Under the pieces are notes generated by a model, which had not been told where the DNA came from, did not search any database, and saw only the letters and a program-made list of their open reading frames with translations. From Candidatus Wallbacteria bacterium (lineage in GTDB: Bacteria; Muiribacteriota; UBA6191; JACPRK01), in assembly GCA_016213845.1 (NCBI GenBank), contig JACQZN010000062.1, forward strand, positions 1 to 45,709: DNA of 45,709 nt, in the 5' to 3' direction. Made by a program: the position numbers and the translations under genes. Shown here piece by piece: positions 11,364-32,932 of the stretch. The stretch's first letter is position 1. The number at the start of each line of letters is the position of its first letter.

Positions 11364-11397
11364 CCTTCACGCTGGCGCGCACCGGTGGGGCGGGGTT

Positions 11398-13773
11398 ATG
11401 ACTCCTGGCATGGAGGAGGCCAGAGAGTCGGTTCGGACACCGACGCGCTCGTGGAGATCGACCGCCGCGATCGCCGTCGCGGCGTGCGTCGCGGCCCTGG
11501 CTGCGGATTCCCTCGTGCCAGAGCTGCACCTGTGGTTCGGCGACCTCGGCGTGAAGGCCCGCGAACGCCGGCCGCTCGATCCGCGCGTCGTGCTGGTAGA
11601 CCTGGAGTCCTGGCCCAGGCCCAGGGGAGTCCTGGCTGCGGCCCTGCGGACCATCGCCGCGATGAAGCCCCGCGTCATCGCGCTGGACGTCTTGCTCGAC
11701 GTCACCCGCGACGATCCCCGGCAAGATCGCGAGCTGGCAGACGCCATCGCCTTGTGCGGCCGGGTCGTGTTGCCGACTGCCGTGGAGCAGCCGGGCGCCG
11801 CGGGGACGCCGACGCCGCCAGAACCTGCACGGGCGAGCGCGCCGGCCCCGACCCCGCTGGTTTCGATGTTCGCCAGCGCGGCCCGTGCGACAGGGTTTGC
11901 CAACTTCGAAGTCGATCTGGACGGAGTCGTGCGCCGGTTGCCCCTCACGTACTGGCCGGCGGGAAGCTCTCCCGAGGGCGGTCTCCCGGCCTTCGCCGTA
12001 TCCGCAGTCTGCGCGTACGCCGCACAGACCGCCGGCAGCCAGTTCGCCTGGCCCCGCGAAGACAGCTGGCAGATCGACTGGTGTGAGACCGCACGAGAGC
12101 GGCTGCCCGTCGCCTCGATGAGCCGCTTGCTGGCCGACCCCGAGTATCGCCGGGCAATGGAGGAGCTGGGGTTCTTCCGGGACCGGATCGTGCTCATCGG
12201 GTACCTGGGCATCCGCTACGTCGGCGACGGTTTTCTGACGCCGCTCTCGACAACGGCCATGGACCGCACACCGGGCGCCGTCGTGCACGCCAACGTCCTG
12301 TCCAATCTGCTGACCGGCAATCGGCTAGTCGAGGCCGGGCCCGTGCACGTCGGGGCGCTGGCGCTCCTGGCAGCGCTGGCGGGCGCGTTGATGGGCCGAG
12401 TGCGCGTGAGCGCGCGGATGGTGCTCTTTCAGCTGCTGCTCCTGGGCGGCGTTCTGGGACTGGGCGTGCTCTCGACGGCCCAGCGCGGCGTTCTGCTGGA
12501 CGTGCTGCCAGTGACGGCGAGCGCAGCGCTGGCGCTGGGGATGGCCAGCCTGCTCTCGGCTCAGGCGCTCATGCGGCTCACCCTGGTGCGGCGCGTCATG
12601 GCGCTCTTCGGACTGGCGCCGAGCGCGGATGTGGCGGTTCTGAACGTGGCATCCGACGGCCCCTCCGAGGGCGGCTTCATCCGGTACTCCATCCAGCTGC
12701 GTGAGGGCGTCGGTCTGGGCGCCCCGGTTACGCTGTTCAGAACGGCCGTGTCTGCCGACAGCCACCGCAGGCTGCTCCACCGGCTCGACGAGCTGCTCTC
12801 CCCGGTCAGCCCCACGGCGCCAGAGGAGGAGCTGATCGATCTCGGACTCGAGATCCGCAGCGAGCTGCTTGGCCGGGGCGTCGAGCGAGCGCTGGCGGAC
12901 CTGACCGTGCAGAACGTCCACCTGGAGCTGGGCCTGGCGGACCTGGGCATCCCCTGGGAGCTGGCGAACATCGCAGGGCGACCGCTGCTGGAGCGGTTCG
13001 GGGTGAGCCGCAGCGTTGTGACGGAGCGCGACGGCGCCGATTGGCCCGCGACACCGAAGGGCCGGCACGCACGTGAAGACCGCGAGGAGGGTTTCCTGGC
13101 GCTGATCGTCGCCAATCCTCGACCGCTCGGGCCGGAGTGGGACGCATTACCCGGGGCCCAGGACGAGGCGGTGGCGCTGGCGGAGTCACTGGCGCCGCTT
13201 TCGAGCGAGCCGTCCGGTCTGCGGGTGGAGCTCCTGATGGGCGAGGAAGCGACCCGTGCCGCGGTGGTCGAGCGCCTGCGGTCGCGGACGGTGGATGTCC
13301 TTCACTTCAGCGGCCACGCAACCTTCGATCCGCAGGCTGGCGACTCCACCGGATTCCTGTTCCCCGAGGGGACTCTGGGGGCACCGGCGCTGGCGGAGCT
13401 GGCCCGGGAGGGCTCTCTTCCGCCGGTAGTCTTCGCCAATGCCTGCCACACGGCCCGCGGCTACGAGCACGCGGCGGGCGGCGACGTGTCGCTCCTGACG
13501 TCGCGGCTGTCGTTGCCGGCAATCTTCACGGCGGCAGGCGCGCGCTTGTTCGTGGGATGTCTCTGGAGGGTAGAGACGCAGGCCGCCGCGCGATTCTCGC
13601 TCGAGTTCTACGGCGGGCTGATGGCCGGGGCAACCGCTGGGGAAGCGATGCAGCGCGCGCGCCGGGCGGCTGCGAACTACTGGATGACGCACGCAGCCTA
13701 TATAATGTATGGCGATCCCAGGTTGAGGTTGCTGGCGGGCGCGCTGGGTGCTCGCGAAAGGGGGACACGGTGA
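11398..13773 (+). CDS. CHASE2 extracytoplasmic sensor domain, 3-4 TM segments, and a C-terminal cytoplasmic CHAT peptidase domain
   Basis: CHASE2-like N-terminus after TM1 (VVLVDLES...KPRVIALDVLLD...DRIVLIGY), followed by a hydrophobic block (GALALLAALAGALMG / MVLFQLLLLGGVLGLGVL / VLPVTASAALALGMASLL). The C-terminal CHAT has VLHFSGHA (His 13315) and VVFANACHTA (Cys 13444). ATG 11398 is residue 40 of the track ORF. Confidence 0.85.
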   Translation: MTPGMEEARESVRTPTRSWRSTAAIAVAACVAALAADSLVPELHLWFGDLGVKARERRPLDPRVVLVDLESWPRPRGVLAAALRTIAAMKPRVIALDVLLDVTRDDPRQDRELADAIALCGRVVLPTAVEQPGAAGTPTPPEPARASAPAPTPLVSMFASAARATGFANFEVDLDGVVRRLPLTYWPAGSSPEGGLPAFAVSAVCAYAAQTAGSQFAWPREDSWQIDWCETARERLPVASMSRLLADPEYRRAMEELGFFRDRIVLIGYLGIRYVGDGFLTPLSTTAMDRTPGAVVHANVLSNLLTGNRLVEAGPVHVGALALLAALAGALMGRVRVSARMVLFQLLLLGGVLGLGVLSTAQRGVLLDVLPVTASAALALGMASLLSAQALMRLTLVRRVMALFGLAPSADVAVLNVASDGPSEGGFIRYSIQLREGVGLGAPVTLFRTAVSADSHRRLLHRLDELLSPVSPTAPEEELIDLGLEIRSELLGRGVERALADLTVQNVHLELGLADLGIPWELANIAGRPLLERFGVSRSVVTERDGADWPATPKGRHAREDREEGFLALIVANPRPLGPEWDALPGAQDEAVALAESLAPLSSEPSGLRVELLMGEEATRAAVVERLRSRTVDVLHFSGHATFDPQAGDSTGFLFPEGTLGAPALAELAREGSLPPVVFANACHTARGYEHAAGGDVSLLTSRLSLPAIFTAAGARLFVGCLWRVETQAAARFSLEFYGGLMAGATAGEAMQRARRAAANYWMTHAAYIMYGDPRLRLLAGALGARERGTR

Positions 13774-23384: not shown

Positions 23385-24860
23385 CTAGCGCGGGCCCAGG
23401 TTGATCCAGACCGACTTGACGGCCGTGTACTGCTCGAGGGCGTGGACGCCCATCTCGCGGCCGAAGCCCGACTGCTTCACGCCGCCGAATGGGGAAGCGC
23501 TGTCGAAGCAGTTGTAGTCGTTGATCCAGACCGAGCCCGCCCGGATGCGGCGGGCCAGCCTGAGGGCGCGCGTGACGTCGGCCGTCCAGATGGCGCTGAC
23601 GAGGCCGTAGACGGTGCCGTTGGCCATACGGATGAGCTCGTCCTCGTCCTCGAAGGTGAGCACCGAGAGGACCGGGCCGAAGATCTCTTCCCGGGCGATG
23701 GTCATCTCCGAGCGGACGCCATCGAAGATGGTCGGCTCCACGAAGTAGCCGCGGTCGAAGGTTGGTCCCGAGAGCCGGCCCCCGCCGCAAACCAGTCGGG
23801 CCTGCTCGGACTTACCGGACTCGATGTATCCGAGCACTCTTTCGAGCTGGCGCTGGCTGATGAGGCTGCCGACGTCGGACGCCGGGTCGAGCGGGTCGCC
23901 CACGCGTAGCGCTCGCGTGGCGTCCGAGAGTCGCTCGAGGAACTCGGAATGAATTGCCTTGTGGAGGAAGAGCCTACTGCCCGCGCTGCAGACCTCGCCC
24001 TTGTTGGCGAAGACGCCCCAGAGGGCGGCGCGCACGGCTGCGTTGATGTCGCAGTCCGGGAAGACGATGTTGGGCGACTTGCCGCCCAGCTCGAGCGACA
24101 GGCGCTTGAGATTGGAATCGGCGCTGGCGTGGAGCAGCTTGCGGGCCGTATCGACGGAACCCGTGAAGGCGACCTTGTCGACTCCCGGGTGGGCGGCGAT
24201 ATGGCCGCCCGTATCGCCGAAGCCGGTGACGACGTTGACGACGCCGGGGGGGAGGCCGGCCTCGGCCAGGATGCCGGCCAGTGCCAGCGCCGTGAGCGGA
24301 GTCTGCTCGGACGGCTTGAGGACCACGGTGTTGCCGGTGGCCAGCGCAGGCGCCAGCTTCCAGGAGGCGAGCAAGAGGGGGTAGTTCCAGGCGACGATGG
24401 CGCCTACCACGCCGACAGGCTCCCGTACTGCGAAGTTGAGGTAGTGACCGTCGACCGGGATGACCTCGCCGTGGAGCTTGTTGGCCCAGCCGGAGTAGTA
24501 GTGGAAGACGTCCCAGGAGGGCGGCAAGTCGCCTCGACCGGCCTCCTTGACGGTCTTGCCGTTGTTGGCCGATTCCAGGCGAGCCAGTTCATCTTTTCTG
24601 GACTGGATCAGGTCGCCCGCGCGGCGCAGGATGCGTCCCCGCTCGGAGGCGTCCATCTTCGGCCAGGGCCCTGATTCCAGGGCGGCGCGTGCGGCGGCCA
24701 CGGCGCGATCGACGTCCTGGGCCGAGCCGTGCACCACGTCGGTGAGCTTCTCGCCCGTCGCCGGGTTGACCACGTCGTAACGGTTCGAGGGCCTGCCCTC
24801 CTCCCAGCGGCCGCCGATCCAGAGCTGGCCGGGCTGGAGGGGATTCGTCGATGCCGTCAT
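23385..24860 (-). CDS. NAD(P)+ aldehyde dehydrogenase
   Basis: ALDH motifs: VVLKPSEQTP, the catalytic Glu context LELGGKSP, the catalytic Cys FANKGEVCSAGSR, and EEIFGPV. ATG 24860 overlaps the alcohol dehydrogenase stop (ATGA). Confidence 0.9.
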   Translation of the reverse strand: MTASTNPLQPGQLWIGGRWEEGRPSNRYDVVNPATGEKLTDVVHGSAQDVDRAVAAARAALESGPWPKMDASERGRILRRAGDLIQSRKDELARLESANNGKTVKEAGRGDLPPSWDVFHYYSGWANKLHGEVIPVDGHYLNFAVREPVGVVGAIVAWNYPLLLASWKLAPALATGNTVVLKPSEQTPLTALALAGILAEAGLPPGVVNVVTGFGDTGGHIAAHPGVDKVAFTGSVDTARKLLHASADSNLKRLSLELGGKSPNIVFPDCDINAAVRAALWGVFANKGEVCSAGSRLFLHKAIHSEFLERLSDATRALRVGDPLDPASDVGSLISQRQLERVLGYIESGKSEQARLVCGGGRLSGPTFDRGYFVEPTIFDGVRSEMTIAREEIFGPVLSVLTFEDEDELIRMANGTVYGLVSAIWTADVTRALRLARRIRAGSVWINDYNCFDSASPFGGVKQSGFGREMGVHALEQYTAVKSVWINLGPR

Positions 24861-26017
24861 GAGGTCTGCATGGCCTCCTCGTAGAGCTGGCGGAGCTCCG
24901 CGGCGCTGCACGTCCGCGGGTTGAGCTGGTGGCAGCCGTCGGCTGCAGCCTGCTCGGTCATTGGCTCAATCATCTCACCCGTGACTCCGGCGGCCGAGAG
25001 CGATGGCGGGATGCCGATCTCCGCGGCCAGCGCCCGCACGCGTTCGATCACGGCGCGGGCCTGCTCTTCGGCCGTGCCGCCCGGGGCCAGCCTCAACGCC
25101 TGGGCGATATCGGACAGGCGCTGCGCGGCGACGGGGAGGTTGAACTCCAGGGCCCGGGCCAGCATGATGCCGTTGGCCAGGCCGTGGTGCAGTCCGGCCA
25201 CCGTCGTTAGCGGATGCGCCAGCGAATGCGTCACCCCCAGGCCCTTCTGGAAGGCGACCGCGCCCATCATCGCGGCCATTAGCATGTGGCCGCGCGCTTC
25301 CAGGTCCGAGCCGTCCCGCACCGCTCGCGGGAGGTGCTCGTCAATCAACCGGATGCCGCCGAGCGCGATCGAATCGCACAAGGGGTGATAGCCGCGGGCC
25401 AGGTAAGCTTCGATGCAGTGCGTGAAAGCGTCCATGCCGGTCGCCGCGGTCAGGTGGGGAGGAAGACCCAGGGTCAGCTCCGGGTCGGCGATGACGGTTG
25501 TGGCCAGCAGGTGCGGGGAGAAGATCACCTTCTTGACGCGGTGCGTCGGGTCGGTGATGACGGTGGAACGGCCCACTTCGCTGCCGGTGCCGGCGGTCGT
25601 CGGGATGGCGATGAAGATCGGCATGTCGGGCCGGATCAGGCCGCCAGCGTTCTCCTCGTAGGAGAGTACGTCGCCGTCGTGCGTCGCCAGCAGCCGGACG
25701 GCCTTGGCGGCGTCCAGGGCGCTGCCCCCGCCGAAGCCGACGATGGCGTCTGCGCTGGAGTCCCGGCACGCACGGCCGCCCGCGTGGACCTCGGGGACGG
25801 TCGGATTGGGGGAGATGTCGCTGAACGCGAAGGCCGAAAAGCCCGCGTCGGAGAGCGTCGAGATCAGCCGGTAGCAGATCTGGGAAGAGACCAGCCCGCG
25901 GTCGGTGATGATCAGCGGACGGCGGACCCGGGCAGCCTTCAGCAGCGCCGGCAACTGGGCGAGGGACCCCGGGCCGAAGAGGATTCGCGTCGGGAATGAG
26001 AACTCGTGAATGGTCAT
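24857..26017 (-). CDS. Iron-containing (group III) alcohol dehydrogenase
   Basis: Fe-ADH signatures: GGGSALDAAKAV, AIPTTAGTGSEV, and His-rich metal-site motifs (THCIEAY, HSLAHPL, LHHGLANG). It lies 17 nt downstream of the GS-like gene. Confidence 0.9.
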   Translation of the reverse strand: MTIHEFSFPTRILFGPGSLAQLPALLKAARVRRPLIITDRGLVSSQICYRLISTLSDAGFSAFAFSDISPNPTVPEVHAGGRACRDSSADAIVGFGGGSALDAAKAVRLLATHDGDVLSYEENAGGLIRPDMPIFIAIPTTAGTGSEVGRSTVITDPTHRVKKVIFSPHLLATTVIADPELTLGLPPHLTAATGMDAFTHCIEAYLARGYHPLCDSIALGGIRLIDEHLPRAVRDGSDLEARGHMLMAAMMGAVAFQKGLGVTHSLAHPLTTVAGLHHGLANGIMLARALEFNLPVAAQRLSDIAQALRLAPGGTAEEQARAVIERVRALAAEIGIPPSLSAAGVTGEMIEPMTEQAAADGCHQLNPRTCSAAELRQLYEEAMQTS

Positions 26018-26034
26018 CGGCGCGCTTCCTTCCC

Positions 26035-27399
26035 TCAGATGATTTCCATGTACCGGGAGAGCTCCCAGCCCGTGACGGCCCGCTGGAACTGGGCGACTTC
26101 CCAGCGGCGCGTCATGACGTAGTGATCGATGAACTCGGCGCCGAGAATCTCGCGGGCGGCCTCGCTCCGGTCGAGAAGCCCGGCGGCCTCGTCCAGGCTC
26201 CTGGGAAGGGGCGTGGCGTCGTCGGCGGTCTGGGTGTAGGCGTTGCCGCTCACGGGCGGCGGCGGTTCCAGCGCCTTCTCGATCCCCCAGAGCCCCGCGC
26301 CGAAGGAGGCCGCCAGCGCGATGTAGGGGTTGATGTCAGCCGCGGCCAGGCGATACTCCACCCGCGTGGCCTTCGCGGACGGCCCCGTGATGACGCGCAG
26401 CGCCGTCGTGCGGTTCTCCACGCCCCAGGCGACGTGCGTGGGGGCCCACGTGCCCGGCACCATCCGCTTGTAGGAGTTGATCGTCGGGGCGATGAGCGCC
26501 GTGGTCTCCCGCATCAGAGCGCACTGGCCGGCGATGTAGCTCTCCAGCGTCTTCGAGAGCCCCGAGCGTCCCCGAGGGCCGTCGGCGAACGCGGGAGCGC
26601 GGGTCTTCCTGTCCCACAGACTCTGGTGCAGATGCCCCGAGCAGCCGGGCAGGTCCTTGTTCCACTTCGCCATGAAGCAGGCCGTGAGCCCGTGGCGCGA
26701 AGCGATCTCCTTGATGCCGGTCTTGAAGAGCGCGGCGCGATCCGCGGCCCGCAGCAACTCGTCATAGTGCAGCGCCGCTTCGAAGACACCAGGGCCGGTC
26801 TCAGTGTGGATGCCCTCGACTTCGCAGTCGTAGGCCTTCATCTGACAGACGATCTCGTCGATCAGGTCAGTTTGCGCGCTGGCTCTGAGCACCGAGTAGC
26901 CGAACATACCCGGCGTCAAGGTCTCCAGGTTGTTGAAGCCCTTCTGGTGAAGGCTCTGCGGCGTCTCCTTGAAGAAAAAGAATTCATACTCGCAGGAGGC
27001 TTTGGGTACAAAACCCATCGCTCCTGCCCGCTCGATGACCCGTTGCAGAACCTGCCGCGGCGACACCGAAAGCGGCGTCTGCGCGTCCTTCATGAAGTCC
27101 ACCAGGAAGAGCGCCGTCCGCTTCTCCCACGGCACCAGCCGGAAACTTCCGAGATCGATCCGGGCCAGCGTGTCGGGGTAACCCGTGTGCCAGCCCGTCA
27201 CGCGGCTCTGGTCGTAGAGCGCGTCGGCGCAATCCCAGCCGAAGATGACGTCGCAGAAGCCGAACCCGTCGGCAGCGGCCGAGGAGAACTTGGCCGGCGA
27301 GATGTACTTCCCTCGCAACACTCCGTCGACGTCGAATCCGGCCACCTTGATCCGCTGGATATCGTTCTCTTCCAGCTTCCGTAGGATCTCATCGAGCAC
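26035..27399 (-). CDS. Glutamine-synthetase-family gamma-glutamyl ligase (GlnA3/GlnA4/PuuA-like)
   Basis: GTG start at 27399 (GGGAGGG 6 nt upstream) gives VLDEILRKLEENDIQRIKVAGFDVDGVLRGKYIS, the GS N-terminal beta-grasp. The catalytic domain carries a conserved C-terminal region (NPYIALAASFGAGLWGI...). It is the first gene of the three-gene operon. Confidence 0.85.
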   Translation of the reverse strand: MLDEILRKLEENDIQRIKVAGFDVDGVLRGKYISPAKFSSAAADGFGFCDVIFGWDCADALYDQSRVTGWHTGYPDTLARIDLGSFRLVPWEKRTALFLVDFMKDAQTPLSVSPRQVLQRVIERAGAMGFVPKASCEYEFFFFKETPQSLHQKGFNNLETLTPGMFGYSVLRASAQTDLIDEIVCQMKAYDCEVEGIHTETGPGVFEAALHYDELLRAADRAALFKTGIKEIASRHGLTACFMAKWNKDLPGCSGHLHQSLWDRKTRAPAFADGPRGRSGLSKTLESYIAGQCALMRETTALIAPTINSYKRMVPGTWAPTHVAWGVENRTTALRVITGPSAKATRVEYRLAAADINPYIALAASFGAGLWGIEKALEPPPPVSGNAYTQTADDATPLPRSLDEAAGLLDRSEAAREILGAEFIDHYVMTRRWEVAQFQRAVTGWELSRYMEII

Positions 27400-27473
27400 G
27401 GCAGCCCTCCCTGTTCGGCCAAAGTGTAACACAGCATACGGTTGTGACCGGGGGGCGGCGGGCCCCAAGTGCG

Positions 27474-27590
27474 GGCCCCTCGAAGGGCATCCTTCGACAA
27501 GCTCAGGATGAGCGGTTCCCGAATGGGCGCGGGACTCCCCCTCCAGCTCCGCTCAGGCTGAGCCTGTCGAGGCCCGCCCTCGAAGGGCCA
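27474..27590. repeat. Small palindromic repeat element (REP/MITE-like) in a divergent intergenic region
   Basis: CCTTCGACAAGCTCAGGATGAGCGG (27491..27515) and its imperfect inverse CCGCTCAGGCTGAGCCTGTCGAGG (27549..27572) match 21/25 and are separated by 33 nt. They are flanked by CCCTCGAAGGGC at both ends. In three frames it translates to ...GILRQAQDERF... / ...PFDKLRMSG... / ...LRLSLSRPALEG..., peptides that resemble ones common in mis-called hypothetical proteins. There is a single copy in this window. Confidence 0.45.
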
Positions 27591-27626
27591 GAACCCTACG
27601 GCATTGCTATACTCGACGCGAGCGAA

Positions 27627-29168
27627 GTGACGCAGACGACGACCGACACCGATGCGGAGCTGCTCCACCGGCTTGGCTATGCGCAAGAGCTCTGGCGCCG
27701 GATGGGAGGCTTCGCCAACTTCGCCGTCTCCTTCTCGATCATCTCCATCCTCTCGGGCGCCATCACCTCGTTCGACCTGGGGCTGGCTTCCGTCGGACCG
27801 GCCCAGATGGGAATCGGCTGGCCGGTGGTCTGCCTCTTCTCCCTGGCGACTGCGATGGCAATGGCCGAGATCGCCAGCGCCTTCCCGACGGCGGGCGGGC
27901 TCTACCACTGGGCCGCCATCCTGGGCGGCAACGGCTGGGGCTGGTGGACGGCCTGGTTCAATCTGATCGGTCTGGTCACCGTGCTGGCCGCCATCGACTT
28001 CGGCGCGGCGGCCTTCCTGCTCGGGTGGGCAGGGCCGCTCGTCGGGCTCGACCTTGCTGCCAGCTCGCCCGCGGCAGCCCAGGCATGGAAGGTGGCCCTG
28101 ACGGCGGCCTTCCTCCTCTCACAGGGCTGGATCAACCACCGGGGGATTCGACTGACGGCACTGGTGACCGACCTGTCCGCCTGGGTCCACATGGCGGGCG
28201 CCGCCCTTCTGACCGCCTCCCTGCTTGGGCTGGCGCGCGCCCAACCGGTCGGCTACCTCTTCGAGTGGATCAACTTGACTGGCTCTCTCGGGGAGGCCGG
28301 ATTTCCGAGGACCGAATCGATGCCGTGGGCGTTCGTGCTGGGGATGCTCATGGCGGCCTACACCTTCACGGGTTACGACGCTTCGGCGCATACGGCCGAG
28401 GAGACCGTCGACGCGGCCAACAAGGTGCCCTGGGGAATGGTGATGGCTGTGGTCGTCTCGGGTGTGTTCGGGTACCTGATGCTTGTGGCGGTGACGCTCT
28501 CCGTTCGGGACCCGCGTCAGGCGCTGGCCTCGGGCGGGGCCGTCATCCACGTGATGCGCCAGGGGTTGCCAGAGTGGCTCTCGCTCGTGCTCCTCGGCAT
28601 CATCTCGCTGGCGCAGTACTCGTGCGGGCTGGCCACGGTGACGAGCCTCTCGCGGATGATCTACGCCTTTGCTCGCGACGGCGGTCTTCCCGGCTCGCAC
28701 CTCTTCAGCCGAGTGAGCCCTGCGACCCGGACTCCAGCGCACGCCATCTGGCTGGGGTCTGGACTGGCCCTGGCCTTCACTCTCTACACGCCGGTCTACG
28801 CGACGATCACCTGCGTGGCCACCATCTCGCTCTACATCTCCTACGCCATCCCGCTCGCCCTGGGGTTGCGTGCGCGCGGCGTCGAGTGGAAGCAGATGGG
28901 GCCCTGGACTCTCGGCAGGATCGGTCCGCCCGTGGCCGCCACGGCCGTCGCCTGGGTCGCCTTCGTCTGTGTCATCCTCGTGCAGCCGCCCAATCGGCTG
29001 GCACTCTGGACGATGCTGGCGTGCGCGGGCTTGCTCGCTCTCTACTGGTTCGCGTACGCCCGGCGCACCTTCCAGGGTCCGCCTCGCGGGCTTCTCAGCC
29101 GCCAAAGGCAGGCCGAGTTGCAGGCAGTGGAAGACCGGCTTTCCGGGCAGACTCCGCAGGCGAAGTAG
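27627..29168 (+). CDS. APC-superfamily amino acid / amine permease
   Basis: 12-TM APC pattern (GGFANFAVSFSIISILSGAITSF... ; ...GYDASAHTAEE...). Start placed at GTG 27627, just upstream of ELLHRLGYAQELW. The 61 codons of the track ORF upstream of it are the translated repeat element, not protein. Confidence 0.75.
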   Translation: MTQTTTDTDAELLHRLGYAQELWRRMGGFANFAVSFSIISILSGAITSFDLGLASVGPAQMGIGWPVVCLFSLATAMAMAEIASAFPTAGGLYHWAAILGGNGWGWWTAWFNLIGLVTVLAAIDFGAAAFLLGWAGPLVGLDLAASSPAAAQAWKVALTAAFLLSQGWINHRGIRLTALVTDLSAWVHMAGAALLTASLLGLARAQPVGYLFEWINLTGSLGEAGFPRTESMPWAFVLGMLMAAYTFTGYDASAHTAEETVDAANKVPWGMVMAVVVSGVFGYLMLVAVTLSVRDPRQALASGGAVIHVMRQGLPEWLSLVLLGIISLAQYSCGLATVTSLSRMIYAFARDGGLPGSHLFSRVSPATRTPAHAIWLGSGLALAFTLYTPVYATITCVATISLYISYAIPLALGLRARGVEWKQMGPWTLGRIGPPVAATAVAWVAFVCVILVQPPNRLALWTMLACAGLLALYWFAYARRTFQGPPRGLLSRQRQAELQAVEDRLSGQTPQAK

Positions 29169-29304
29169 GACTCGGGCGCCCGTTGCCGGAAGCGAGTCAG
29201 CGTTTACTCGTATCCCGGGTCACGATTGTGTCGCCTGGCAGGGCTCTTGCGGTTCGAGTTCGGACGCGATCCCGCGTTGCACGGCGCCCGAAAAGGGGGG
29301 CCGA

Positions 29305-30453
29305 ATGATCGTCACCCACGATTCCGCTACGGACTTTGCCCCGCCGATGCGGGCATCCGAGGAAGACCTCGAGCGTCAGCAGCGCCAGCTGCTCGAGACG
29401 CAGTATCTGCCGATGCTCTTCGACGCGGTCGACGAGATGATCCTCGTCCTGAACCGCGAGCGCCAGATCGTCTTCGCCAACAACGCGTTCAAGCGTGTGG
29501 TCGATGCCCGGGATGTAGAGACGGTCTGCGGGCTCCGGGTGGGCGAGGCGCTCGACTGCATCCATTCCGCCGAGCGCGAATCCGGTTGCGGGACCACGAA
29601 GTTCTGCGCCGAATGCGGCGCGGCGCGCGCCATCCTGCAGAGCGCCGAGGGCGGCTCCCGGGTCGAGGAGTGCCGCATCACCCGCAAGGGAACCGGGGAG
29701 GCCCTGGACCTGCGCGTCCACGCGGCGCCGTTGACGCTCGGCGGCTACTCCTACACCGTCTTCTCGCTTCGAGACATCAGCAGCGAGAAGCGGCGCCAGG
29801 TGCTGGAACAGATGTTCTTCCACGATCTTCTCAACACCGCCACCCTGGTGCGGGGACTGGCCGAGGTCTTCGGTCTCAGCGGGGCCGCCCGTCAGGAGGA
29901 GTTCCGTAACAAGATCGTGACGGGGGCGCAGCGGCTGGTGGAGGAGATTGCCAGCCAGAAGATGTTGCTGGCGGCCGAGCAAGGGGAGCTGGTCTGCTCG
30001 ACGGCGCTGATAGATACTCTCGAGTTCGTGAAGCGGAGCGTCTCCGGCCTCAAGGAGCTCGACCTCGCCCGGGGCCGGGAGCTGGTCCTCGCCCCGGAGT
30101 CGGTAGCGGCTGCGATGTCGACCGATCAGGGGCTTCTGTCGCGGGTGCTCGGAAACATGATCAAGAACGCGCTCGAGGCTTCACAGCCCGGGGAGCGCAT
30201 CGTCGTGGGTTGCGCCCCCCAAGACGGCGGCGCCCGGTTCTGGGTCACCAACGCCGCCGTCATGCCTCGCAGCGTGCAGCTCCAGGTGTTCCAGCGCTCT
30301 TTCACCACGAAGGGCACCGGTCGCGGCGTTGGCACCTACAGCATGAAGATGCTGGCGGAGCGTTACCTCAAGGGCCGCGTTGGCTTCGTGTCCGCCCAGG
30401 GTTCTGGCACGACCTTCGAAGTCTGGCTTCCGTCGATGCTTCCGAGCCCGTAG
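29305..30453 (+). CDS. Soluble PAS-domain sensor histidine kinase with a Cys cluster in the PAS domain
   Basis: ATG 29305 with AAAAGGGGGG upstream. PAS region (MILVLNRERQIVFANNAFKRVV...) containing C75, C85, C95, C101 and C104. H-box FFHDLLNTATLV, followed by HATPase_c (LGNMIKNALEAS, TKGTGRGVGTYSMK). No TM segments. Confidence 0.8.
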   Translation: MIVTHDSATDFAPPMRASEEDLERQQRQLLETQYLPMLFDAVDEMILVLNRERQIVFANNAFKRVVDARDVETVCGLRVGEALDCIHSAERESGCGTTKFCAECGAARAILQSAEGGSRVEECRITRKGTGEALDLRVHAAPLTLGGYSYTVFSLRDISSEKRRQVLEQMFFHDLLNTATLVRGLAEVFGLSGAARQEEFRNKIVTGAQRLVEEIASQKMLLAAEQGELVCSTALIDTLEFVKRSVSGLKELDLARGRELVLAPESVAAAMSTDQGLLSRVLGNMIKNALEASQPGERIVVGCAPQDGGARFWVTNAAVMPRSVQLQVFQRSFTTKGTGRGVGTYSMKMLAERYLKGRVGFVSAQGSGTTFEVWLPSMLPSP

Positions 30454-30466
30454 CGGGTGGGCGGGG

Positions 30467-32155
30467 TCATCCCGAGTAGGCTTCGTCCTGTTCGATGGCG
30501 GACAGCACCCAGCCGAAACGGCCGGAGGTGATCTTGGAGCCGCAATGCCCGCAGACTCCGGCCTGATCGACCTTCATCGGCGCACCGCAGCCCGGGCAGC
30601 TGGTAAAGTCGGAATCCGATGTGGCTGGAGGCGACGCGGGCTGAAAGTCCCCGGTGCCCGAACGGCGAATCCAGGTCCAGTACTCGCTGAACTCCCGGGG
30701 GTGCTCCTTGGAGCCGGCCACGAGGCCGCTGCCGGACTCGAGCGTGTAGTCGAGCATCGAGGCGAAGATGCGCACGGTCAGCGAGTCGTAGTAGGCGTCG
30801 GAAGAGACCTTCGCCAGTTCGATCTTCCCGACCTTCACGTCCTCGCAGCGATTGGTGAGCGCCGACGAGATGTAGCGTTCGATCCAGAATCGGTGCGTCT
30901 GGAAGAGGTGGTCTGTCTCGAAGGGGCGAATCGCCTCCCAGTTTCTTTCACTCCAGGCCTTTTGCAGGGTCAGGAAAGCCGTCTGCACGTGCTTCTGGAA
31001 CTCGGGCCAGGAGAATCCGGGGTGCCTGGCCTGGAAGTCTCGGCGACGCGCCGCCAGATCGGGCGCCAGAACGGTCGGCGCTCGCGTGCCTGCCTCGGCG
31101 CCTCCCAGGCTTTGAGGATCGATCAACTCTCGCCGCTGGCGCCGCCAGCTCCTGACGGCGCTGACGGTCCAGCCGAGCTTGCCGTCGAGTACGGGCTGGT
31201 CGCAGAAGGTGCACGTACCGTTGGGTCTCACTTCCACGGGAGAGCCGCAGCTGGGGCAGGTGAGTGAGGTCGCCTCTTCGGGTGCGCGGGAAAGTACACC
31301 GGACGCTCGGCGAAAGGTCCACGACTCCTCCACGAAGAGCGACTCGACATAGCTGGTGCAGCCTGCGGGCGCGTGGCGCTCATCGAGGTTGGCCTCGAAG
31401 AGGACGTCGATCTCGGCGTGGTGGCCGAACGGGCGGATGTCCCTGAGGTGGGCGCTGCCGATGACGACGGCTTCGACGGCGGACAGGGCCTGGATCCCCT
31501 GGGGGCGGGCTGCCGCATGCCACGCCTCGATGACGCGCCGGGAGACGTACGGCGCCAGCGGCGCCCACTCCCGGGTGCCGCGCGCCGCCTGGGCACGGGC
31601 GAAGACCAGGTGGACGAAGTCGAGGAAGACGGGCTCCGAGAAGTTCGGGTCCATCTTGCGAAGCCGCTCGAGCTTGAAGGCGAGGTCGGGTCTCGGACGC
31701 GAAAGAGCGGCCGAGTCGTTCAGCAGAGCCTCCGGCGGCGTCGGCAGGCGCGCAAGGACCCACCGTCTGACGTCAGCCACGGTGTCGTCGATCTCCGTCT
31801 GGAACCTCAGGTAGATGCCGCCGCCGACAGCCAGCGGCAGCCACAGAGGCCAGCCGTAGCGGAAGATCCACCAGACGATTCGGAAGAGCGCCAGGGGATC
31901 GAGCGGTTCTCCTGAACCGCCGCTCGAGTATCGGTATCCGGAGCCGCCGTAGGAGCCGCTGCCGTACGAGCGCGAGGAGCCGGACCATCCGCCGCCCGAA
32001 CGCGAGGAGCTGCTGGAGCTGTAAGAGCGACTGGGGGAGCTGGAAGGACGCGAGTAGCTCTGGCCGCCTCCCAGGCGCGCTTGAAGATTGCCTGCCGAGA
32101 GGGTGAGGTAGAGGGCTGCGGCGAGCGCTGCTGCGGTTATGACGCGGCGTGTCAC
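30467..32155 (-). CDS. Membrane protein with an N-terminal signal-anchor, a G/S/Y-rich low-complexity segment, a second TM, then two Tim44-like domains each followed by a CxxC...CxxC zinc ribbon
   Basis: GTG start at 32155 overlaps the upstream stop (GTGA). TM1 VITAAALAAALYLTLSAG. Low-complexity QSYSRPSSSPSRSYSSSSSSRSGGGWSGSSRSYGSGSYGGSGYRYSSGGSG (31912..32074). TM2 LALFRIVWWIFRYGWPLWLPLAVGGGIYL. Tim44-like (NTF2-fold) blocks: FLDFVHLVFARAQAARGTREWAPLAPYVSRRV... and FQKHVQTAFLTLQKAWSERNWEAIRPFETDHLFQTHRFWIERY...EYWTWIRR. Ribbons CPSCGSPVEVRPNGTCTFC (31202..31258) and CPGCGAPMKVDQAGVCGHCG (30542..30598). The 225 N-terminal codons of the track ORF are artefact. Confidence 0.7.
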   Translation of the reverse strand: MTRRVITAAALAAALYLTLSAGNLQARLGGGQSYSRPSSSPSRSYSSSSSSRSGGGWSGSSRSYGSGSYGGSGYRYSSGGSGEPLDPLALFRIVWWIFRYGWPLWLPLAVGGGIYLRFQTEIDDTVADVRRWVLARLPTPPEALLNDSAALSRPRPDLAFKLERLRKMDPNFSEPVFLDFVHLVFARAQAARGTREWAPLAPYVSRRVIEAWHAAARPQGIQALSAVEAVVIGSAHLRDIRPFGHHAEIDVLFEANLDERHAPAGCTSYVESLFVEESWTFRRASGVLSRAPEEATSLTCPSCGSPVEVRPNGTCTFCDQPVLDGKLGWTVSAVRSWRRQRRELIDPQSLGGAEAGTRAPTVLAPDLAARRRDFQARHPGFSWPEFQKHVQTAFLTLQKAWSERNWEAIRPFETDHLFQTHRFWIERYISSALTNRCEDVKVGKIELAKVSSDAYYDSLTVRIFASMLDYTLESGSGLVAGSKEHPREFSEYWTWIRRSGTGDFQPASPPATSDSDFTSCPGCGAPMKVDQAGVCGHCGSKITSGRFGWVLSAIEQDEAYSG

Positions 32156-32778
32156 TTGTCGTAGAATCGGGGGCGGTTGGGGAGCTCGTCCGGGTTGGCG
32201 GCCGAAGGGGGGAGGGGGCCCGACACCACGGTTCCGATGGCGTCCAGGGCAGCGAGCGCGCGAAGGGTCGCGGGGACGCCAGCTTCTCTGGCCGCCCTGA
32301 ACTGGTGGACGATGCGGTGTAAGTGGGAAGACTCGATCGCGCTGGCGACTCCAACATCCGGAAGCAGCACGAGCTCGTCCTCGAAGCTCGACTGGAACAC
32401 GAGAAGCCCTGTCCTGCCACGGGTTGCGGCCACGCTCTCGTCGACGAAGTGGATTCGCGCCTCCCGCTCCGCCTGCCGCCGCATCCTGCCCGTCGAGCAG
32501 AACGGCCGGCGCACGGCCGGCACCCGCGCCACCGCCAGCGTCGCCAGCGCGAAGGTCACCGCCAACACGGGCAGCAAGAGCTCCTGGTGCAGCTCCACGG
32601 GGCAGTAGACCAGCACGGCCAGGACCACGGCCGTCAGCGCGATCCCCACCGAAAGCTCCACGTCCCGGTAACTGCCGCATTGCCGGCGCCCCACGAAGAC
32701 CAGCTCCACGCACGTGAGCGCCTCGATCCGCTCGATCGCGGCCTCCACATCTTTCGCGAACTGCGCGTCGTCTCTCAT
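32152..32778 (-). CDS. Hypothetical 208-aa membrane protein (two TM helices) of unknown function, translationally coupled to the Tim44-like gene
   Basis: ATG 32778 (residue 92 of the track ORF). MRDDAQFAKDVEAAIERIEAL..., then two hydrophobic helices (VGIALTAVVLAVLVYCP / LLLPVLAVTFALATLAVARV) and a C-terminal soluble part. No family recognised. Confidence 0.5.
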   Translation of the reverse strand: MRDDAQFAKDVEAAIERIEALTCVELVFVGRRQCGSYRDVELSVGIALTAVVLAVLVYCPVELHQELLLPVLAVTFALATLAVARVPAVRRPFCSTGRMRRQAEREARIHFVDESVAATRGRTGLLVFQSSFEDELVLLPDVGVASAIESSHLHRIVHQFRAAREAGVPATLRALAALDAIGTVVSGPLPPSAANPDELPNRPRFYDK

Positions 32779-32787
32779 CCCGGGCTC

Positions 32788-32817
32788 GCTTCCGGAGAAC
32801 CATACCACTCCGGAAGC
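32788..32817. promoter_or_regulatory. Perfect 10-bp inverted repeat GCTTCCGGAG-N10-CTCCGGAAGC, 10-40 nt upstream of the 208-aa gene start, in the divergent region shared with zwf
   Basis: Seen directly. On the minus-strand mRNA the 3' arm contains the only purine-rich SD-like element (GGAAG) before the ATG, so the hairpin would sequester it. Alternatively it is a dimeric TF operator. Confidence 0.35.
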
Positions 32818-32932
32818 CCCAACGAGGCACGGGCGCGCTTCGTGACTGGTGTTACAATTGGCTGGTCCCGCTCCGGCCCCTCCGCGGCCGGCACGCCGAC
32901 TGCCAGGCCGGGCCCCGCCCCAAGGAGAGCCG

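What the first reader, a model, noticed from the sequence alone, without database searches (positions are those of the whole stretch)
23385..29168. A GS-like ligase / Fe-ADH / ALDH operon plus a divergent APC permease: a candidate gamma-glutamylation pathway for amino-alcohol or polyamine catabolism
A glutamine-synthetase-family protein with no nitrogen-regulation context is tightly coupled to an iron alcohol dehydrogenase and an aldehyde dehydrogenase (17-nt gap, then ATGA overlap). This is the enzyme set needed to gamma-glutamylate an amine and then oxidise an alcohol group to the acid, as in ethanolamine, aminopropanol or alkylamine utilisation via GlnA4/IpuC/PuuA-type ligases. The divergently transcribed APC permease would import the amine. 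No gamma-glutamyl hydrolase is in the window.
Basis: inference. Interest (0 to 1): 0.55.

Follow-up and report, generated by a model that had tools for sequence, protein, structure and literature searches.

The report
Gamma-glutamyl amino-alcohol (ethanolamine) catabolic operon
This is a three-gene operon plus a transporter that most likely lets the bacterium eat ethanolamine (or a similar amino alcohol) by first tagging it with glutamate; the chemistry is already known from other bacteria, but this version uses a different, uncharacterised branch of the tagging enzyme that is common in soil bacteria.

Summary
The minus strand carries a GS-like ligase (26035-27399), a 17-nt gap, an Fe-ADH (24857-26017), an ATGA overlap and an ALDH (23385-24860). 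A divergent APC permease lies at 27627-29168. No hydrolase is in the 45.7-kb contig.

The ligase is not a true glutamine synthetase. It scores below the GlnA, GlnT and PuuA cut-offs. It keeps all metal, ATP and glutamate residues but has E327->W, N264->P and S53->R.

Its nearest solved relatives are 5dm3 and 11zs. Both belong to the proteobacterial GS-like/ALDH/Fe-ADH ethanolamine cluster, which has the same Pfam triad as here. Identity is only about 32%.

The ligase defines its own clade: at least 579 species genomes carry a relative, mostly Myxococcota and Acidobacteriota among the best 80. Across 82 loci, Fe-ADH lies beside it in 67, an ALDH in 34, the permease in 25 and a GATase/C26 hydrolase in 22.

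More distant relatives of the permease sit beside a third GS-like lineage, probably GlnA4-like.

The best reading is ethanolamine -> gamma-glutamylethanolamide -> aldehyde -> gamma-glutamylglycine, with the hydrolase encoded elsewhere. The substrate is inferred, not shown.

This is a new variant of a known pathway, of modest interest.

The parts
26035..27399 (-). GS-like ATP-dependent gamma-glutamyl-amine ligase, 454 aa. An alternative annotated start gives 465 aa (27432 by my arithmetic).
   Evidence: Pfam Gln-synt_C 1.4e-99, with no Gln-synt_N hit. Below the cut-offs of GlnA, GlnT and PuuA. Metal, ATP and glutamate residues are kept; E327->W, N264->P, S53->R. Best PDB matches are 11zs and 5dm3. 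GGGAGGG Shine-Dalgarno before the GTG.
24857..26017 (-). Iron-type (group III) alcohol dehydrogenase, 386 aa. Proposed gamma-glutamyl-amino-alcohol dehydrogenase.
   Evidence: Pfam Fe-ADH plus ADH_Fe_C. No NCBIfam equivalog is reached. GGGS motif and the four metal ligands are kept. It is 41-45% identical to the Fe-ADH of the proteobacterial ethanolamine clusters, against 34% to FucO. It lies 17 nt after the GS stop.
23385..24860 (-). NAD(P)-dependent aldehyde dehydrogenase, 491 aa. Proposed gamma-glutamyl-aminoaldehyde dehydrogenase.
   Evidence: Pfam Aldedh 5e-183. It is 44% identical to E. coli PuuC. Catalytic ELGGK and GEVCSA motifs are present. ATGA overlap with the Fe-ADH.
27400..27626 (.). 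Divergent intergenic region. It holds an imperfect palindrome with 39-nt arms at 27477-27587.
   Evidence: Inverted repeat I1. It folds with z = -4.2 on the minus strand and -2.6 on the plus strand. No sigma-70 consensus promoter or terminator was found. No Rfam match.
27627..29168 (+). APC-superfamily permease, about 513 aa, nearest the amino acid/choline (ACT) subfamily. Proposed amine importer.
   Evidence: Pfam AA_permease_2 9e-54. Best NCBIfam match is TIGR00907 at 252 bits; the Eat ethanolamine permease model scores only 44 bits. Orthologues lie next to the GS-like gene in 25 of 82 loci. More distant relatives lie next to a second GS-like lineage in 49 of 80 metagenome loci.

Best explanation
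This is a catabolic module that uses gamma-glutamylation to oxidise a primary amino alcohol, most probably ethanolamine, to the matching amino acid.

Proposed steps:
1. The APC/ACT permease imports the amine (inferred).
2. The GS-like ligase uses ATP to form gamma-glutamyl phosphate from L-glutamate and transfers it to the amine, giving gamma-glutamylethanolamide. This is inferred from the conserved catalytic residues and the loss of ammonium-specific ones.
3. The Fe-ADH oxidises the free hydroxyl to the aldehyde (inferred).
4. The PuuC-like ALDH oxidises that to gamma-glutamylglycine (inferred).
5. A gamma-glutamyl amidohydrolase encoded outside this contig releases glycine and regenerates glutamate. 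In relatives this is a class-I GATase / peptidase C26 enzyme.

Shown here: gene order and coupling, family assignments, residue pattern, conserved linkage of all five functions across phyla, and relatedness to the known ethanolamine cluster. Not shown: substrate identity, any enzyme activity, and the hydrolase in this organism.
For: - Tight operon structure.
- Intact ligase chemistry with E327->W, N264->P and S53->R across the whole family.
- Below the GlnA, GlnT and PuuA cut-offs.
- Top PDB hits are 11zs and 5dm3 at 264 and 245 bits, against 176 bits or less for true GS.
- Both of those belong to RpiR | FGase-DctQMP-GS-ALDH-FeADH clusters. That is the published gamma-glutamylation ethanolamine pathway (PMC9397018; PMC10132767; PMC6529630).
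- The NJ tree joins the window family and these ligases 100/100.
- Synteny in 82 loci: Fe-ADH 67, ALDH 34, permease 25, GATase/C26 22, all three enzymes 8. L015 has GS-FeADH-ALDH-C26 in the window's gene order.
- The Fe-ADH is closer to the ethanolamine-cluster Fe-ADH than to FucO.
- Eight family loci carry an ALDH 42-53% identical to the ethanolamine-cluster ALDH.
- Permease relatives pair with another GS-like lineage that is 42% identical to the 5dm3 type.
- No PuuB, EutBC or FGase in the 82 loci.
Against: - The ligase is only about 32% identical to the ethanolamine gamma-glutamylase orthogroup. Substrate specificity cannot be transferred at that distance.
- No hydrolase and no regulator are on the contig.
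- The ALDH is closer to PuuC (44%) than to the ethanolamine-cluster ALDH (32%).
- The Fe-ADH's best NCBIfam match is 4-hydroxybutyrate dehydrogenase, and it is below cut-off.
- The permease is not of the Eat or EutH type.
- The Asp at the D50 position is retained, so activity with ammonium is not formally excluded.
- Support for monophyly of the window family in the simple NJ tree is only 42/100.
Confidence: 0.75

Rival explanations
1. The pathway logic is the same but the substrate differs. The ligase clade would be specific for another primary amino alcohol: 3-aminopropanol, 4-aminobutanol, alaninol, serinol, or a lipid-derived amino alcohol such as a sphingoid base. The product would be the corresponding amino acid.
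For: - About 32% identity to the ethanolamine ligases.
- A PuuC-like ALDH.
- The Fe-ADH's best match is 4-hydroxybutyrate dehydrogenase.
- Two ceramidase genes lie directly upstream of the cluster in L006/L012.
- A fatty-acid-hydroxylase gene lies downstream in five of the six Polyangia-type loci where its family occurs.
Against: - Ethanolamine is by far the commonest natural primary amino alcohol (general knowledge).
- The nearest characterised relatives of the ligase, of the Fe-ADH and, in 8 loci, of the ALDH are all from ethanolamine clusters.
- The lipid-gene neighbours occur in only a few loci.
Confidence: 0.2
2. This is a PuuA-like polyamine (putrescine) gamma-glutamylation pathway. The Fe-ADH would be incidental.
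For: - The ALDH is 44% identical to PuuC.
- PuuD-like C26 hydrolases occur in 5 related loci.
- The ligase scores 227 bits against the PuuA model.
Against: - The PuuA score is far below its cut-off of 650.
- No PuuB-type oxidase occurs in any of the 82 loci.
- The Fe-ADH is the most conserved neighbour (67 of 82) and is translationally coupled here.
- PuuA falls outside the window-plus-ethanolamine clade.
Confidence: 0.03
3. This is a genuine ammonium-assimilating glutamine synthetase that happens to lie next to two dehydrogenases.
For: - Gln-synt_C is complete and all metal, ATP and glutamate residues are kept. An Asp is kept at the D50 position.
- Public annotation calls it 'glutamine synthetase'.
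Against: - E327->W is invariant in the family; N264->P and S53->R.
- It scores 243 bits against the GlnA cut-off of 429.
- The tree places true GS outside.
- Linkage to ADH, ALDH, permease and hydrolase is conserved.
- There are no glnB or ntrBC neighbours.
Confidence: 0.02

Closest known systems
Proteobacterial gamma-glutamylation ethanolamine pathway: Chromohalobacter salexigens Csal_0678 region and Phaeobacter MED193_10026-10056. The ligase structures 5dm3 and 11zs belong to this orthogroup.
   Same: - The same three enzyme families: PF00120 ligase, PF00465 Fe-ADH and PF00171 ALDH (contexts verified).
- The ligases group together 100/100 and share an aromatic residue at E327.
- The Fe-ADHs are 41-45% identical.
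   Different: - Ligase identity is only about 32%.
- An APC permease replaces the TRAP DctPQM transporter.
- There is no FGase (PF05013) hydrolase; relatives use GATase/C26 instead.
- The ALDH is PuuC-like rather than the cluster's own type.
- There is no RpiR regulator.
- Gene order differs: GS-ADH-ALDH here, GS-ALDH-ADH there.
Streptomyces coelicolor GlnA4 (SCO1613) ethanolamine utilisation cluster (PMC6529630).
   Same: - A gamma-glutamyl ligase with an ALDH. In other Streptomyces species an amino-acid-type permease and a glutamine amidotransferase-type gene are also present.
- E327 is replaced by an aromatic residue (F331 in GlnA4).
- Relatives of the window's permease lie next to a high-GC GS-like lineage with an SDR in metagenomes. 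This resembles the Streptomyces layout.
   Different: - The dehydrogenase is a short-chain dehydrogenase there and an Fe-ADH here.
- That cluster has an EpuRI regulator.
- I could not obtain the SCO1613 sequence, so identity was not measured.
E. coli Puu pathway (PuuP, PuuA, PuuB, PuuC, PuuD).
   Same: - Import, gamma-glutamylation, oxidation to the acid through an aldehyde, then hydrolysis.
- The ALDH is 44% identical to PuuC.
- C26 hydrolases in related loci are 30-33% identical to PuuD.
   Different: - The ligase is 29% identical to PuuA and lies outside its clade.
- An alcohol dehydrogenase replaces the FAD amine oxidase PuuB.
- The permease has only weak, partial similarity to PuuP (27% over 167 aa).
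Other glutamyl-organic-amine synthetases: NpaA1 (8WWU), PauA7 (4HPP) and GmaS (7CQL, 9QUR).
   Same: GS-like fold used to glutamylate an organic amine (PMC11335346).
   Different: Much weaker similarity: 158, 73, 118 and 148 bits respectively. Their partner enzymes also differ.

Membership tests
Gamma-glutamyl-amine ligases (GS-like / 'GoaS'), as opposed to true GS | GS catalytic domain with intact metal, ATP and glutamate-binding residues | tested here: met
   E129, E131, E212, E220, H269, H271, R321, R339, R344, E357 and R359 are all conserved. Gln-synt_C matches positions 2-344 of 344.
Gamma-glutamyl-amine ligases (GS-like / 'GoaS'), as opposed to true GS | Loss of ammonium-specific residues (E327 flap, S53, Y179, D50) | tested here: inconclusive
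   E327->W is invariant in the 13 family members aligned. S53->R or variable, and N264->P. But an Asp is kept at the D50 position in most, and the alignment around Y179 is ambiguous (MFGYS).
Gamma-glutamyl-amine ligases (GS-like / 'GoaS'), as opposed to true GS | Amine-dependent, not ammonium-dependent, ligase activity | not testable with these tools
   Needs an enzyme assay.
Type I glutamine synthetase GlnA (TIGR00653) | Score at or above the curated equivalog cut-off | tested here: not met
   242.9 bits against a cut-off of 429.15. 122 bits and a partial alignment to E. coli GlnA.
Glutamate-putrescine ligase PuuA (NF045547) | Score at or above the cut-off, with a PuuB oxidase partner | tested here: not met
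   226.9 bits against a cut-off of 650. No PuuB homologue in the 82 loci.
GlnT / 'type III' GS, GmaS-like (TIGR03105) | Score at or above the cut-off | tested here: not met
   234.6 bits against a cut-off of 469.6.
Proteobacterial ethanolamine gamma-glutamylase orthogroup (5dm3 / 11zs type) | Sequence membership. Members listed here are 74-95% identical to their query, and the two structures' families are related. | tested here: not met
   About 32% identity to the Chromohalobacter and Roseovarius proteins. It is a sister or neighbouring clade, not inside the orthogroup.
Proteobacterial ethanolamine gamma-glutamylase orthogroup (5dm3 / 11zs type) | Co-location with Fe-ADH and ALDH | tested here: met
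   for the window. for the reference clusters.
Proteobacterial ethanolamine gamma-glutamylase orthogroup (5dm3 / 11zs type) | TRAP ethanolamine-binding transporter and FGase-family amidohydrolase in the cluster | tested here: not met
   No DctPQM in the window. No FGase in the window or in the 82 loci.
Streptomyces GlnA4 (gamma-glutamylethanolamide synthetase) | Orthology to SCO1613 | not testable with these tools
Only cluster architecture was compared, from PMC6529630.
IpuC (gamma-glutamylisopropylamide synthetase) | Orthology to IpuC, with an Ipu monooxygenase partner | not tested
   No reference sequence was available. No monooxygenase gene was seen next to the window operon.
ACT (amino acid/choline) subfamily of APC permeases (TIGR00907) | Score at or above the subfamily cut-off | tested here: not met
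   252 bits against a cut-off of 598.3. It is still the best-matching model. The Eat ethanolamine permease model TIGR00908 scores only 44 bits.

The most novel reading that the evidence does not exclude
The ligase belongs to a large, uncharacterised clade: at least 579 species-level genomes carry a relative, and the best 80 are mainly Myxococcota and Acidobacteriota. Its physiological substrate might not be ethanolamine but another amino alcohol, possibly lipid-derived such as a sphingoid-base or ether-lipid breakdown product. Ceramidase and fatty-acid-hydroxylase neighbours in a few loci hint at this. If so, it would define a new catabolic route in soil bacteria.
Probability: 0.2. Interest if true: 0.5.

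Novelty: new variant of a known kind. Interest (0 to 1): 0.3.

Why it matters
If the assignment holds, many uncultured or little-studied soil and groundwater bacteria (Acidobacteriota, Myxococcota and others) would have a route from ethanolamine to glycine that needs neither B12 nor a microcompartment.

Ethanolamine is the head group of the most abundant bacterial phospholipid, so this bears on nitrogen and carbon turnover from necromass.

The genes are currently annotated simply as 'glutamine synthetase', which would inflate counts of ammonium-assimilation genes in metagenomes.

The mosaic of transporter, dehydrogenase and hydrolase families around related ligases also shows how such pathways are assembled from interchangeable parts.

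Tried and rejected
- Hydrolase in the window. tblastn with an L001-type GATase, E. coli PuuD, an L015 C26 hydrolase and a Roseovarius FGase gave no hits. Pfam on the remaining ORFs found none. The 147-aa ORF after the ALDH was rejected as a shadow ORF: GC3 0.71 against 0.89 for the opposite-strand PMT_2 gene.
- True glutamine synthetase. Rejected.
- Polyamine pathway. Rejected for lack of any PuuB-type oxidase.
- GbsAB-like choline-to-betaine route. The BADH and GbsB model hits suggested it. I dropped it because a quaternary amine cannot be glutamylated and the ligase is the conserved core of the cluster.
- Regulatory RNA. Rfam gave no match in the window. The intergenic palindrome could not be tested by covariation, because the only relative with that region (L007) is 97% identical.
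- Promoter and terminator consensus scans found nothing.
- The look-up of encoding contigs for the window's own annotated protein returned no record.
- Gerlt 2016 (doi 10.1016/j.pisc.2016.07.001) is not held in the library. I rebuilt the C. salexigens-type cluster from sequence instead.
- Literature searches for this Fe-ADH variant in other phyla found nothing beyond the three known systems.
- I did not predict a structure. It would not have identified the substrate.

Full report
**1. Observation**

The window is a single 45,709-bp, 66-72% GC contig. A protein 100% identical to the window's GS-like protein is named by NCBI as from a 'Candidatus Wallbacteria bacterium' MAG, on a contig of the same length.

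On the minus strand lie three co-directional genes:
- a GS-like gene, 26035-27399. It starts at a GTG preceded by GGGAGGG and gives 454 aa. NCBI annotates a 465-aa form, which by my arithmetic starts at 27432.
- an iron-type alcohol dehydrogenase, 24857-26017. It begins 17 nt after the GS stop codon.
- an aldehyde dehydrogenase, 23385-24860. Its ATG overlaps the ADH stop as ATGA.

The 491-aa ALDH length matches homologues. A divergent APC permease begins about 227 nt upstream of the GS-like gene, at about 27627, and ends at 29168.

Pfam assignments are unambiguous. The operon ends at the ALDH. The next ORF on that strand is a shadow of a convergent PMT_2 glycosyltransferase gene.

**2. The ligase is not a glutamine synthetase**

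It hits only Gln-synt_C. It is far below the curated cut-offs for GlnA (243 vs 429), GlnT (235 vs 470) and PuuA (227 vs 650).

I aligned it with E. coli GlnA, using S. typhimurium numbering. All metal ligands (E129, E131, E212, E220, H269, E357) and the ATP, phosphate and glutamate residues (H271, R321, R339, R344, R359) are kept. So ATP-dependent formation of gamma-glutamyl phosphate is expected.

The E327 flap glutamate is Trp in every family member examined. It is Phe in 5dm3 and 11zs and Tyr in PuuA. N264 is Pro, and S53 is Arg or variable. Replacement of E327 by an aromatic residue is what Krysenko et al. reported for GlnA4 (F331) and PauA7 (W296) (PMC6529630).

An Asp persists at the D50 position. 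The region around Y179 aligns ambiguously. I therefore score 'loss of the ammonium pocket' as only partly shown.

**3. Relatives and context**

The family is large. A scan of one genome per GTDB species found at least 579 relatives. The best 80 are 54-63% identical, apart from one at 96%. They come from Myxococcota (Polyangium, Byssovorax, Myxococcaceae), Acidobacteriota (Terriglobia, Bryobacteraceae), Bdellovibrionota, Gemmatimonadota, Armatimonadota and Poribacteria. The 96%-identical sister MAG has the same gene order.

I counted genes within 6 kb of the ligase in 82 loci:

| Neighbour | Loci (of 82) |
|---|---|
| Fe-ADH | 67 |
| Any ALDH | 34 |
| - ALDH of the window's PuuC-like type | 25 |
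| APC permease | 25 |
| Class-I GATase / peptidase C26 protein | 22 |
| - L001 type | 17 |
| - PuuD-like | 5 |
| Fe-ADH, ALDH and hydrolase together | 8 |

Pfam confirmed both hydrolase types. L015 carries GS-FeADH-ALDH-C26 in exactly the window's order. None of the loci has a PuuB-type oxidase, EutBC or an FGase.

All five functions of a gamma-glutamyl cycle are therefore genetically linked to this ligase family. The hydrolase is simply not on this contig.

**4. Link to the known ethanolamine pathway**

The two best PDB matches are 11zs (264 bits) and 5dm3 (245 bits). True GS structures score 176 bits or less. NpaA1 (8WWU) scores 158, the two GmaS structures 148 and 118, and PauA7 73.

I searched with the 5dm3 and 11zs sequences and read the genomic contexts. 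Their families are from Chromohalobacter/Halomonas/Roseobacter-group bacteria and from Brucellaceae and other Rhizobiales, respectively. All three contexts read are RpiR | FGase-DctQ-DctM-DctP-GS-ALDH-FeADH.

This is the published gamma-glutamylation ethanolamine pathway:
- The Pfam set PF00120, PF00465, PF00171 and PF05013 is listed for C. salexigens in PMC9397018.
- The Phaeobacter homologues are induced on phosphatidylethanolamine (PMC10132767).

A bootstrapped NJ tree joins the window family with these ligases 100/100. PuuA falls outside (92) and true GS is the outgroup. Monophyly of the window family itself gets only 42/100 in this simple analysis.

Pairwise identities:

| Window protein | Compared with | Identity |
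|---|---|---|
| Ligase | Chromohalobacter GS-like | 32% (249 bits) |
| Ligase | E. coli PuuA | 29% |
| Fe-ADH | Ethanolamine-cluster Fe-ADHs | 41-45% |
| Fe-ADH | E. coli FucO | 34% |
| ALDH | E. coli PuuC | 44% |
| ALDH | Ethanolamine-cluster ALDH | 32% |

In eight loci of the window's ligase family, the neighbouring ALDH is instead 42-53% identical to the ethanolamine-cluster ALDH. Catalytic motifs of the Fe-ADH (GGGS and four metal ligands) and of the ALDH (ELGGK, GEVCSA) are intact.

**5. The permease**

Its best model is the amino acid/choline (ACT) subfamily TIGR00907, below cut-off. It is not an Eat-type ethanolamine permease.

A metagenome scan for its relatives returned 80 loci at 36-45% identity. 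In 49 of them the permease sits next to a third GS-like lineage. That lineage is 42% identical to the 5dm3 type and 36-37% identical to the window ligase, with Trp at E327. A short-chain dehydrogenase often accompanies it, and the loci are high-GC.

This layout resembles the Streptomyces glnA4 cluster: permease, SDR, ALDH and GATase (PMC6529630). I could not verify orthology to SCO1613.

So the permease type links the window to the probable GlnA4-like lineage, while the Fe-ADH links it to the proteobacterial one. This mosaic is the main reason I favour ethanolamine.

**6. Mechanism and rivals**

The best explanation (confidence 0.75 for the pathway logic, roughly 0.55 for ethanolamine specifically) runs as follows:
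1. The permease imports the amine.
2. The ligase glutamylates it using ATP.
3. The Fe-ADH oxidises the hydroxyl to an aldehyde.
4. The ALDH oxidises the aldehyde to an acid, gamma-glutamylglycine.
5. An unlinked GATase/C26-type amidohydrolase hydrolyses it.

Rivals:
- Another amino alcohol as substrate (0.2). Low identity to characterised ligases supports this, as do occasional lipid-related neighbours. Two ceramidases lie upstream in L006/L012. A fatty-acid hydroxylase lies downstream in five Polyangia-type loci.
- A polyamine pathway (0.03).
- A true GS (0.02).

**7. Novelty and score**

The chemistry and the enzyme triad are already known, so a specialist would not be surprised. What is new:
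- a distinct, widespread and uncharacterised ligase clade;
- a third combination of transporter, dehydrogenase and hydrolase families;
- its occurrence in poorly studied soil and groundwater phyla.

I rate it a new variant of a known kind, with interest 0.3. The substrate remains an inference.

Noticed in passing
window 27477-27587; L007 13649-13663: An imperfect palindrome with 39-nt arms (74% complementary, 33-nt spacer) fills much of the divergent intergenic region. It folds strongly (z = -4.2 on the minus strand). A second copy of its core 15-mer lies at the very end of the sister MAG's contig, which suggests a dispersed repeat that breaks assemblies. It could equally be an operator or a leader structure.
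   Followed up: partly
window 40814-43396 (+): An 860-aa protein with Pfam MVP_shoulder (8e-26) and a below-cut-off Vault_3 match. This is a bacterial homologue of the eukaryotic major vault protein.
   Followed up: no
window 8553-11363 and 11281-13773 (+): Two adjacent large CHAT-domain (caspase-like) proteins. One has TPR repeats and the other an N-terminal CHASE2 sensor domain.
   Followed up: no
window 30467-32830 (-), and the ORF 28870-30453 (+): A 787-aa protein with a Tim44-like domain and weak zinc-ribbon matches. Next to it is a PAS/HATPase histidine kinase lying directly after the permease, with no response regulator nearby and no HisKA hit. This kinase gene was not among the neighbour genes shared across related loci.
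   Followed up: partly
window 34490-37939 (-) and 37198-39513 (-): Two very long ORFs (1149 and 771 aa) with no Pfam match at all. As listed they overlap, so the gene boundaries are uncertain.
   Followed up: no
L006 / L012 (GCA_902812465.1), L006 3695-6342: Two alkaline ceramidase genes lie directly upstream of ALDH-GS-FeADH in an Acidobacteria genome. This may hint that sphingolipid-derived amines feed the pathway. It was seen in a single genome.
   Followed up: no
L025, L042, L047, L068, L070 (about 10.6-11.4 kb in most; 4419-5057 in L068): In five Polyangia-type loci, a 212-aa fatty-acid-hydroxylase-family membrane protein (PF04116, 7e-18) follows the Fe-ADH on the same strand. A sixth locus (L076) has it adjacent on the opposite strand.
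   Followed up: partly
L005 7544-7756 and 10624-10989; also L018, L039, L067: Small four-helix-bundle '23S rRNA intervening sequence protein' ORFs (PF05635) are inserted between genes of the cluster in Terriglobia loci.
   Followed up: no
L001 13408-14619: An IS605 OrfB/TnpB (Cas12f-like) gene sits directly after GS-FeADH, where other loci carry further cluster genes. This locus lacks an ALDH.
   Followed up: no
metagenome loci L094-L173: A different conserved module in 67% GC contigs, probably actinobacterial. It holds an aspartase/fumarase-family lyase (Lyase_1), an ACT-type permease, a GS-like ligase (42% identical to the 5dm3 type) and an SDR. Many loci have a roughly 960-aa repeat-rich protein between the permease and the ligase.
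   Followed up: partly
whole window: The MAG is labelled 'Candidatus Wallbacteria'. Apart from a sister MAG with the same label, the nearest relatives of the ligase are from Myxococcota and Acidobacteriota, and the contig is about 69% GC. The taxonomic label was not checked.
   Followed up: no
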